NCBI RefSeq assembly: GCF_044704955.1
Contig: NC_091999.1
Location: 26,288,001-26,352,000, forward strand
DNA length: 64,000 nucleotides
Direction of reading: 5' to 3'
Source: Pristiophorus japonicus
Taxonomy: Eukaryota
Below the pieces are notes generated by a model, which was given only the letters and a program-made list of their open reading frames with translations, was not told the DNA's origin and did no database searches. Below, piece by piece: positions 27,960-29,184 of this stretch (the stretch's first letter is position 1; the number at the start of each line of letters is the position of its first letter). Made by a program: the position numbers and the translations under genes.

Positions 27960-28264
27960 GTGTCCAGTCGGATGTGGTGTTGACTCAGCCCGAGGCAGAG
28001 ACCAGGATTCCCGGGGTCTCCCTGAGACTGACCTGTAAAACCAGCGGCTTCGATCTTGGTGGCAGCTACATGTACTGGATCCGCCAGATTCCCGGACAGG
28101 GGCTGGAGTGGCTGCTTCAGTATTACAGTCCATCGAACAAGTATTATGCCGCAGGGATTGCGAGCCGATTTACTGCGTCCAAAGACACTTCAAACAACAT
28201 CTTCGCGCTGGACATGAAGAACCTGAAGAGCGAAGACACCGCCATCTATTACTGTGCAAGGTAC
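27960..28264 (+). CDS. IGHV: Ig heavy-chain V segment (shark IgM-type VH), germline unrearranged
   Basis: [13 protein letters not shown]...[13 protein letters not shown]...[12 protein letters not shown]...[33 protein letters not shown]; both Cys and the Trp are conserved; open frame. Confidence 0.98.
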
Positions 28265-28303
28265 CACAGCGAGAGGAACCAGGGCTGGACCCGTACAAGA
28301 ACA
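28265..28303 (+). other. V 3' RSS, 23-bp spacer
   Basis: CACAGCG (28265-28271), 23 bp, ACAAGAACA (28295-28303). Confidence 0.92.
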
Positions 28304-28710
28304 GATCGAGAGGGAATTCAACAATTTTCATCATAACCTGACGGTCAGTAAGTGTGACAAATGCAATGTTAACAACAGTGTTCAGAACAAGACCATAAAC
28401 CGCTTCTTACAAAACTAAGACACTGAGAATTCAATGGTGAAAATCTAACACACTAACCCATGTACTGAGGGGTAGTTTTGGTTGTGCTCCTGTTTAATGT
28501 GAGCAGTGTCAGCAATTGCAGAGCTGGAGATGATGCTCGATTCACTGTGCCTGGTACATGCAGGGAGCTGGTTGGAAGTGTGTTCACTTTCTATTGTGTT
28601 GTGTAAACTGTTGGCTAAATTCTAAACTTGATCAGAAGCGAATGTGTATTTGAAGTGAATGTCTATTTGAAGTGTACGTTGAGAGTTAGTACTGAGCAGA
28701 GAGTGAGGGC

Positions 28711-28738
28711 AGTATTTGTGCGGGTTCCTGTCACTGTG
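28711..28738 (+). other. D 5' RSS, 12-bp spacer
   Basis: AGTATTTGT (28711-28719), 12 bp, CACTGTG (28732-28738). Confidence 0.9.
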
Positions 28739-28755
28739 GGACTACAGCAGTGGGC
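28739..28755 (+). CDS. IGHD: DH segment (D1-type), GGACTACAGCAGTGGGC
   Basis: 17 nt between a 12-RSS and a 22-RSS; all three frames open (GLQQW / DYSSG / TTAVG). Confidence 0.93.
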
Positions 28756-28793
28756 CACGGTGGTATACAGAGCGAGCTTACCATACAAAAACC
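28756..28793 (+). other. D 3' RSS, 22-bp spacer
   Basis: CACGGTG (28756-28762), 22 bp, consensus ACAAAAACC (28785-28793). Confidence 0.93.
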
Positions 28794-29108
28794 CCAGACA
28801 TGGAATTTGCACAAACATGCGATCGCTACCACGCCAGGAGCGTCGAAGGAACTGAGGTTTAAGTAAAAATAATAAGTGGAAGTAAGATATATATATATTT
28901 AAATGTATCACATTTTTCTGCTTTATTACTCTTGATTGACATGCTGAATCTGCACAGCTGCTTCAGAAGTATTCCAATCATTTTTTATAAATATAATGAA
29001 CGGTACAAACTGAAATATCTCACTGATTCACTCTTAGGGGAGTCAGAATCAGGCTTTCAAAGCTGCGTGCAAATTAATCTCTGTATTTTACAGTTAACAG
29101 TCCGCCGG

Positions 29109-29136
29109 AGTATTTGACACAACGTGTCTCACTGTG
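29109..29136 (+). other. RSS 5' of JH, 12-bp spacer
   Basis: AGTATTTGA (29109-29117), 12 bp, CACTGTG (29130-29136); no nonamer-like sequence at 22 or 23 bp spacing (agtccgccg / cagtccgcc). Confidence 0.85.
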
Positions 29137-29184
29137 ACGCTATGGACTACTGGGGACAAGGGACCATGGTGACGGTGACTGCAG
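29137..29184 (+). CDS. IGHJ: JH segment (AMDYWGQGTMVTVTA)
   Basis: WGQG motif, 48 nt, phase-1 donor GTAAGG at 29185. Confidence 0.97.

What the first reader, a model, noticed from the sequence alone, without database searches (positions are those of the whole stretch)
28253..29153. Direct V-to-J joining is 12/23-legal and an AC microhomology yields in-frame CARYAMDYW
Seen: the V coding end is TGT GCA AGG TAC and J begins AC GCT ATG GAC TAC TGG. Overlapping the shared AC gives TGT GCA AGG TAC GCT ATG GAC TAC TGG, which is C-ARYAMDY-W, in frame. Known: V(23) and J(12) satisfy the 12/23 rule, and short coding-end homologies bias junctions when TdT is low (canonical fetal junctions). Inference: this cluster could yield two repertoires, D-containing and a D-less, near-invariant, very short CDR3 heavy chain, in the manner of TCR beta/delta RSS layouts rather than IgH.
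Basis: partly seen in the sequence, partly recalled or inferred. Interest (0 to 1): 0.7.

Follow-up and report, generated by a model that had tools for sequence, protein, structure and literature searches.

The report
Shark antibody gene that lost D2
This intact shark antibody heavy-chain gene lacks its second diversity piece and its joining piece sits behind that piece's cutting signal, likely through a change in inherited DNA, so a short chain with no diversity piece is possible on paper but would likely be a minor product.

Summary
In detail: V has a 23-spacer signal, J a 12-spacer signal, and the shared AC gives in-frame CARYAMDYW. But the 'J signal' is the old 5' signal of a lost D2: its flank matches the D2 flank of canonical V-D1-D2-J IgM clusters in the same genome (z 16-18; J flank z 1 or less), and a relative's contigs run from this flank into D2. 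The cluster is V-D1-[D2 lost]J, an inherited form of the V-D-DJ intermediate. V-to-J is thus the V-to-D2 skip that is legal in every canonical shark IgM cluster. The AC overlap is ancestral: 12 of 13 clusters where V-J is illegal (23/23) have it in frame too. No fully joined relative has the 7-residue loop (0 of 11), and D1 is invariant in nine copies. No RNA test of this species was possible, so the near-invariant D-less chain stays an untested prediction (about 30% detectable, under 10% dominant). None of 69 fetched clusters of this IgM family keeps a free D2. The scan already reported this pre-joining on sister loci.

The parts
27788..27833 (+). IgM leader exon
   Evidence: ATG to GT donor, phase 1, open in virtual splice
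27960..28264 (+). VH exon (family 1, DVVLTQ...YYCARY), open
   Evidence: VH by similarity to solved antibody chains
28265..28303 (+). V recombination signal, 23 spacer
28711..28738 (-). D1 5' signal, 12 spacer, nonamer 2 mismatches
28739..28755 (+). D1 segment, 17 bases, open in three frames
   Evidence: invariant in 9 of 9 sister copies
28756..28793 (+). D1 3' signal, 22 spacer, consensus nonamer
28794..29108 (+). former D1-D2 spacer
   Evidence: its 3' part aligns to the D2 upstream flank of canonical clusters, z 16-18; one relative contig bridges it
29109..29136 (-). 12-spacer signal now in front of J; by descent the 5' signal of D2; nonamer 3 mismatches
29137..29184 (+). JH, full length (14 bases before the Trp codon, as in canonical J), no D2 letters left
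36337..36636 (+). Cmu1 exon, open
37434..37751 (+). Cmu2 exon, open
39706..40014 (+). Cmu3 exon, open
40936..41327 (+). Cmu4 exon with secretory tail
44109..44236 (+). transmembrane exon 1, open

Best explanation
This is an intact shark IgM heavy-chain cluster whose D2 segment is missing and whose J sits directly behind D2's 12-spacer signal, likely through an old RAG-made D2-J join in the germ line, and in B cells it would likely rearrange mostly as V-D1-J in two steps, with the D-less V-to-J join a legal but likely minor by-product. Shown: the signals, the D2 descent of the J-side signal, the open exons, and the spread of the layout through the gene family. Inferred: RAG as the cause; germ-line timing (from shared junctions in many paralogues); preference for the D1 route (D1's 12-signal is nearer to V, 467 against 865 bases, and one base closer to consensus; D1's 22-signal with a perfect nonamer competes for the J-side signal from 374 bases). 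Untested: product frequencies. My odds: D2 descent 0.97; D1-containing products the majority 0.8; CARYAMDYW detectable as a recurrent clone 0.3; dominant 0.08.
For: The 153 bases before the J heptamer align to the D2 flank of three canonical clusters (111-115 of 154 columns, z 16.2-17.6) but not to their J flank (z 0.3-1.2) or D1 flank (z 1.3-2.1). Those clusters are V23-12D22-12D12-23J and are IgM (Cmu1 72-79% identical, Cmu2-4 and TM found). In a related organism's contigs the same flank runs past the heptamer into D2, and in another contig into D2+N+J. 26 of 26 family-1 matches to the D2-signal pattern are followed directly by J. Among 69 family-1 loci fetched: 9 V-D1-J, 20 V-[DJ], 29 [VD]-J, 11 fully joined, none with a free D2; the stepwise forms show V-D1 and D1-J joins were made. 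Fully joined loci span 30-39 bases from Cys to Trp, none the 24 of the D-less join. D1 has 0 of 17 variable columns across nine copies against 13.5% and 22.9% in the spacers (weak, chance about 0.03-0.09). In nurse shark V-to-D1 is the commonest first join and junctions show trimming and N/P addition (PMC2435157, section 10 and passages). Inherited partial joins are known (PMC2193153 parts 1-2; PMC5192425 passages).
Against: No D2 letters remain in this copy and only 2 extra bases in the sisters, which is heavy trimming for a coding joint; a hybrid joint or heptamer-to-heptamer deletion fits as well. The 11 fully joined loci are only about four lineages, so 0 of 11 is weak, and in L055/L057 D1 letters cannot be told from N bases. 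All three distinct homology-guided V-D1-J products are out of frame while the flush V-J product is in frame, which would favour the D-less chain if TdT were absent (chance about 0.3). Rearrangement order varies between nurse shark clusters (PMC2435157 discussion passage), so signal quality is a poor predictor. D-less, N-less TCR beta chains are enriched before birth in people (PMC8488670 passages).
Confidence: 0.78

Rival explanations
1. One reading: the cluster yields two repertoires, and in early life a near-invariant D-less chain (CARYAMDYW) made by AC-guided V-to-J joining is a substantial product.
For: 12/23-legal, flush 2-base overlap, in frame, open to the secretory tail; three near-identical copies (L001-L003) with matching V, Cmu2-4 and TM exons; homology-guided D1 routes are out of frame, 3 of 3 distinct products; all 9 V-D1-J copies can give an in-frame 7-residue loop; precedent in prenatal human TCR beta (PMC8488670 passages) and fixed neonatal shark chains such as IgM1gj (PMC4279169 passages).
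Against: Same in-frame overlap in 12 of 13 clusters where V-J is illegal; the flush form looks derived and is shared with VD-joined copies where it cannot serve V-J joining; 0 of 11 inherited full joins are D-less in length; D1 and its signals are conserved; TCR beta V-to-J is reported rare, about 0.7% (cited in PMC8488670). I recall that newborn nurse shark IgM junctions are already diverse, but could not read that paper.
Confidence: 0.12
2. The main product is as in the best explanation, but D2 was removed by a signal swap, a RAG hybrid joint (D2's 12-signal joined to J's coding end after cutting at the 12/23 pair) or a deletion between the two identical heptamers, and not by a D2-J coding joint.
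For: J is full length and abuts an intact heptamer with 0 (12 listed copies) or 2 extra bases; both heptamers read CACTGTG in canonical clusters; a germ-line hybrid joint that swapped signals is documented in horned shark (PMC2193153 parts 1-2).
Against: Canonical D2 begins GTAC and J begins AC, so a coding joint on that AC gives the 16-base form with one later substitution; other loci here show ordinary coding joints with D remnants (L075, L018, L052). P bases on J would give the same letters, so sequence cannot decide.
Confidence: 0.35
3. The layout is a somatic V-D-DJ intermediate from a lymphocyte, caught in the assembly, or an assembly error.
For: V-D-DJ is a known somatic intermediate (PMC2435157 passages).
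Against: Nine separate loci at 89-100% identity share the layout, and dozens more share the same J-side junction.
Confidence: 0.02
4. The cluster is a primary TCR-type V-D-J unit (TCR-associated Ig-like V) with an original 12-spacer J.
For: Signal grammar equals TCR beta/delta (PMC8488670 passage).
Against: Splices to a full Cmu1-4/TM set; J-side flank is the IgM D2 flank.
Confidence: 0.02

Closest known systems
Partly germline-joined IgM clusters of horned shark and little skate (VDD-J, VD1-D2J / VD-DJ, VDJ; PMC2193153 parts 1-2, PMC5192425 passages)
   Same: Cluster IgM with inherited joins; the D2-J side is joined and D2's 5' signal remains; the VD-DJ form itself occurs 29 times among the loci fetched.
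   Different: Here V and D1 are both still free (V-D1-D2J), a germ-line form not named in the passages I saw; no D2 letters remain; the whole V family lacks a free D2.
Somatic V-D-DJ intermediate of nurse shark Group 2 IgM (PMC2435157, section 10 and passages)
   Same: Same segment and signal layout, about 400 bp shorter than germ line.
   Different: Inherited and multi-copy here; somatic joints are unique and carry N/P bases and D2 letters.
TCR beta locus with D-less rearrangements (PMC8488670 passages)
   Same: V23, 12-D-23, 12-J grammar permits V-to-J; D-less products short and public.
   Different: Different origin (IgH D2 loss), one V, D and J within 900 bp; whether a beyond-12/23 restriction acts here is untested.
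IgM1gj and other fully germline-joined neonatal shark chains (PMC4279169, PMC2193156 passages)
   Same: Would give a fixed binding loop early in life.
   Different: Those need no rearrangement; this cluster needs RAG, and keeps Cmu2.

Membership tests
Elasmobranch IgM cluster | Leader, one VH, D, one JH within about 2 kb | tested here: met
Elasmobranch IgM cluster | Four Cmu exons, secretory tail, TM exon | tested here: met
   (TM2 not looked for)
Canonical shark IgM V-D1-D2-J | Two free D segments (12/22 and 12/12) and a 23-spacer J | tested here: not met
   one D; J behind a 12-spacer signal
Partly germline-joined IgH cluster | One spacer and its signal pair removed exactly at the heptamers | tested here: met
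   D2-J spacer absent, D2 5' signal and J intact
Partly germline-joined IgH cluster | Present in the germ line | tested here: inconclusive
   shared by many paralogues, which a somatic event cannot explain; no germ-cell DNA tested
Partly germline-joined IgH cluster | RAG coding-joint marks (trimming, P/N bases, D remnant) | tested here: inconclusive
   0 or 2 extra bases; fits coding joint, hybrid joint or deletion
TCR beta/delta-type locus | V23 / 12-D-23(22) / 12-J signal grammar | tested here: met
TCR beta/delta-type locus | TCR J motif and TCR constant region | tested here: not met
   WGQG J and Cmu exons
Canonical homology-directed fetal junction | Terminal short homology giving an in-frame join | tested here: met
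   but also in 12 of 13 control clusters
Canonical homology-directed fetal junction | Junction over-represented in early-life repertoire, low TdT | not testable with these tools
   no repertoire data for this species were available

The most novel reading that the evidence does not exclude
A germ-line signal swap gave a whole shark IgM family TCR-beta-like recombination grammar, and the three copies with a flush AC overlap make a programmed, near-invariant 7-residue-loop IgM in early life by skipping D: an antibody counterpart of canonical fetal TCR junctions, and a natural test of the beyond-12/23 rule in a 900-bp unit.
Probability: 0.1. Interest if true: 0.7.

Novelty: new variant of a known kind. 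Interest (0 to 1): 0.3.

Why it matters
It shows how germ-line recombination can turn IgH signal grammar into TCR-like grammar across a whole gene family, cutting the number of joins from three to two, one or none. The nine V-D1-J copies are a compact natural substrate for asking whether RAG skips a D when the 12/23 rule allows it. If the D-less chain were abundant in pups it would be a programmed public antibody; on present evidence it is more likely a minor by-product.

Tried and rejected
Expression: no RNA holder listed for the V-D-J stretch; three small-share runs of other organisms were laid. Their V-J joints showed 12 of 440 rows with 16-37 letters between V and J; these organisms have D2 and the table is cut, so it says nothing on D-less joins here. 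First guess that the canonical V-D1-D2-J clusters were IgW: rejected, they carry Cmu1-4 and TM. Missing Cmu1 (heavy-chain-only idea): rejected, exon found. Pfam scan of raw frames failed on stops. Pattern search for short inherited joins found 2 exact matches, of 36 and 30 bases (exact pattern, so a lower bound). D2-with-3'-signal pattern found 14 matches, none in family 1 (built from family 2, may miss diverged copies). Rows set aside's 90 loci: L070 (no V match), L085-87 and L089 (no J), L088 (other V family); L084 and L075 were mis-binned by the script and reassigned to family 2. Trees could not settle one or several D2 losses: V and J-side trees disagree, suggesting exchange between clusters. 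Papers not held: Lee 2008, Zhu 2011, Hsu 2016, Kokubu 1988, Rumfelt 2004; these, and Table 1 and supplementary figures of PMC2435157 (pictures, not seen), may report V-to-D2 skips or a germ-line V-D-DJ. Searches found no paper describing D-less shark IgM or inherited V-D-DJ; the library lacks most of the primary shark papers, so this is no proof of absence.

Full report
Observation. The letters are as stated. V ends TGT GCA AGG TAC at 28264 before a 23-spacer signal; one D (28739-28755) has a 12-spacer signal 5' and a 22-spacer signal 3'; J starts AC at 29137 behind a 12-spacer signal whose nonamer has 3 mismatches. The AC overlap gives CARYAMDYW. Leader, V, J, Cmu1-4 with secretory tail and TM1 are open with canonical splice sites, and the D-less product reads 571 residues without a stop. 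This is a complete shark-type IgM cluster.

What the J-side signal is. The same genome holds a second IgM family with the textbook layout V23-12D22-12D12-23J (IgM by Cmu1 at 72-79% and by Cmu2-4/TM). The 153 bases before the window's J heptamer align to the D2 upstream flank of three such clusters (z 16.2-17.6 over shuffles) and not to their J flank (z 0.3-1.2) or D1 flank (z 1.3-2.1); downstream, the J and its intron match the canonical J, which is also 14 bases before Trp and starts AC. Contigs from a related organism (runs guessed to be RNA) follow the same flank through the heptamer into a D2, and in one case into D2, extra bases and J. So D2, its 3' signal, the D2-J spacer and J's 23-signal are gone, and J inherited D2's 5' signal. 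No D2 letter remains in this copy.

Family picture. Of 90 loci examined, 69 belong to the window's V family: 9 V-D1-J like the window, 20 with D joined to J, 29 with V joined to D1, 11 fully joined; none has a free D2. Fifteen belong to family 2 (12 canonical, 2 with one D flanked 12/12, 1 with D joined to J); six were set aside. 26 of 26 family-1 hits to the D2-signal pattern are followed directly by J. Some unplaced-contig loci may be duplicates, and not every family member was fetched. Sharing across paralogues means the change is inherited. Partial inherited joins (VDD-J, VD1-D2J, VDJ) are known from horned shark and skate (PMC2193153, parts 1-2 of 3 read; PMC5192425 and PMC4279169, passages), RAG action in shark germ cells is argued in PMC2193156 (passages), and V-D-DJ is a somatic intermediate in nurse shark (PMC2435157, section 10 and passages). 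Earlier notes of this scan reached the same reading on sister loci; I had it before that look-up and tested it here.

How D2 was lost. Six of the nine V-D1-J copies have 2 extra bases before the AC; the window's flush form groups among them in the spacer tree (100/99) and with a VD-joined clade on the J side (94/89), so it is likely a later 2-base loss. Canonical D2 starts GTAC, so a coding joint on the shared AC would leave two bases; a hybrid joint with two P bases would leave the same; a deletion between the identical heptamers would leave none. A germ-line hybrid joint that swapped signals is on record in horned shark (PMC2193153). I give the coding joint about 0.6 and the swap or deletion about 0.35.

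The D-less claim. Legality is real but not special: V23 to D2's 12-signal is legal in every canonical cluster; what is new is only that here the skip finishes the gene in one step. The overlap is not a sign of design: an in-frame AC overlap exists in 12 of 13 family-2 clusters where V and J are both 23 and cannot join (1 base of V trimmed), and it is flush in only 3 of 9 sister copies. Without homology 12 of 36 trim pairs are in frame, the ordinary third. Inherited joins in the family went V-D1 or D1-J; the 11 full joins (about four lineages) span 30-39 bases, none 24. D1 is invariant across nine copies (0 of 17 columns; spacers 13.5% and 22.9%), a weak sign of use. D1's 12-signal is closer to V (467 against 865 bases) and nearer consensus, and D1's 22-signal competes for the J-side signal from 374 bases. 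Whether shark pups have low TdT I could not check; my recollection that newborn nurse shark junctions are already diverse is unverified.

Verdict. Observation confirmed, interpretation partly supported. The real feature is a germ-line V-D1-[D2-lost]J IgM cluster, a new variant of a known kind and already noted by this scan on other DNA. The D-less near-invariant chain is a cheap, testable prediction with low prior: about 0.3 detectable, under 0.1 dominant. Interest 0.3.

Noticed in passing
window 37612-37623: Cmu2 reads SPVFKV where two of three family-2 clusters read VCEV (third VYEV); loss of this cysteine may affect heavy-chain disulphide links (role recalled, not tested).
   Followed up: no
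L068 (431-455 after Cys) and L074: Family-2 IgM clusters with a single D flanked 12/12 and a 23-spacer J: inherited D1-D2 joins giving a mammal-like V-D-J layout.
   Followed up: partly
L075: Family-2 cluster with free V and D joined to J, keeping 6 D bases: an ordinary inherited coding joint.
   Followed up: partly
L085-L087, L089, L088: A third Ig-like V family (AIELRQ...) with 23-spacer signals and no J found within about 2 kb; one member (L088) is joined out of frame. Possibly TCR-delta-associated V genes.
   Followed up: no
L053, L056, L058, L059, L061, L062, L069: Seven fully joined IgM genes sharing one inherited junction (11-residue loop); L053 has an open V and J.
   Followed up: partly
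L031-L050, L060-L066, L090: Large clade of VD-joined copies with frameshifted V and stops in Cmu1: expansion of pseudogenes.
   Followed up: partly
window 9057-11111 (-) and about 48900-52500 (+): Retroelement or provirus-like pieces in broken frames (envelope- and integrase-like on minus; gag, protease, reverse transcriptase, RNase H-like on plus). Described only.
   Followed up: no
window 62328-62852 (-): C2H2 zinc-finger array open frame.
   Followed up: no
window 27654-27695: GC box and TATA-like element before the leader; no octamer in 27500-27800.
   Followed up: no
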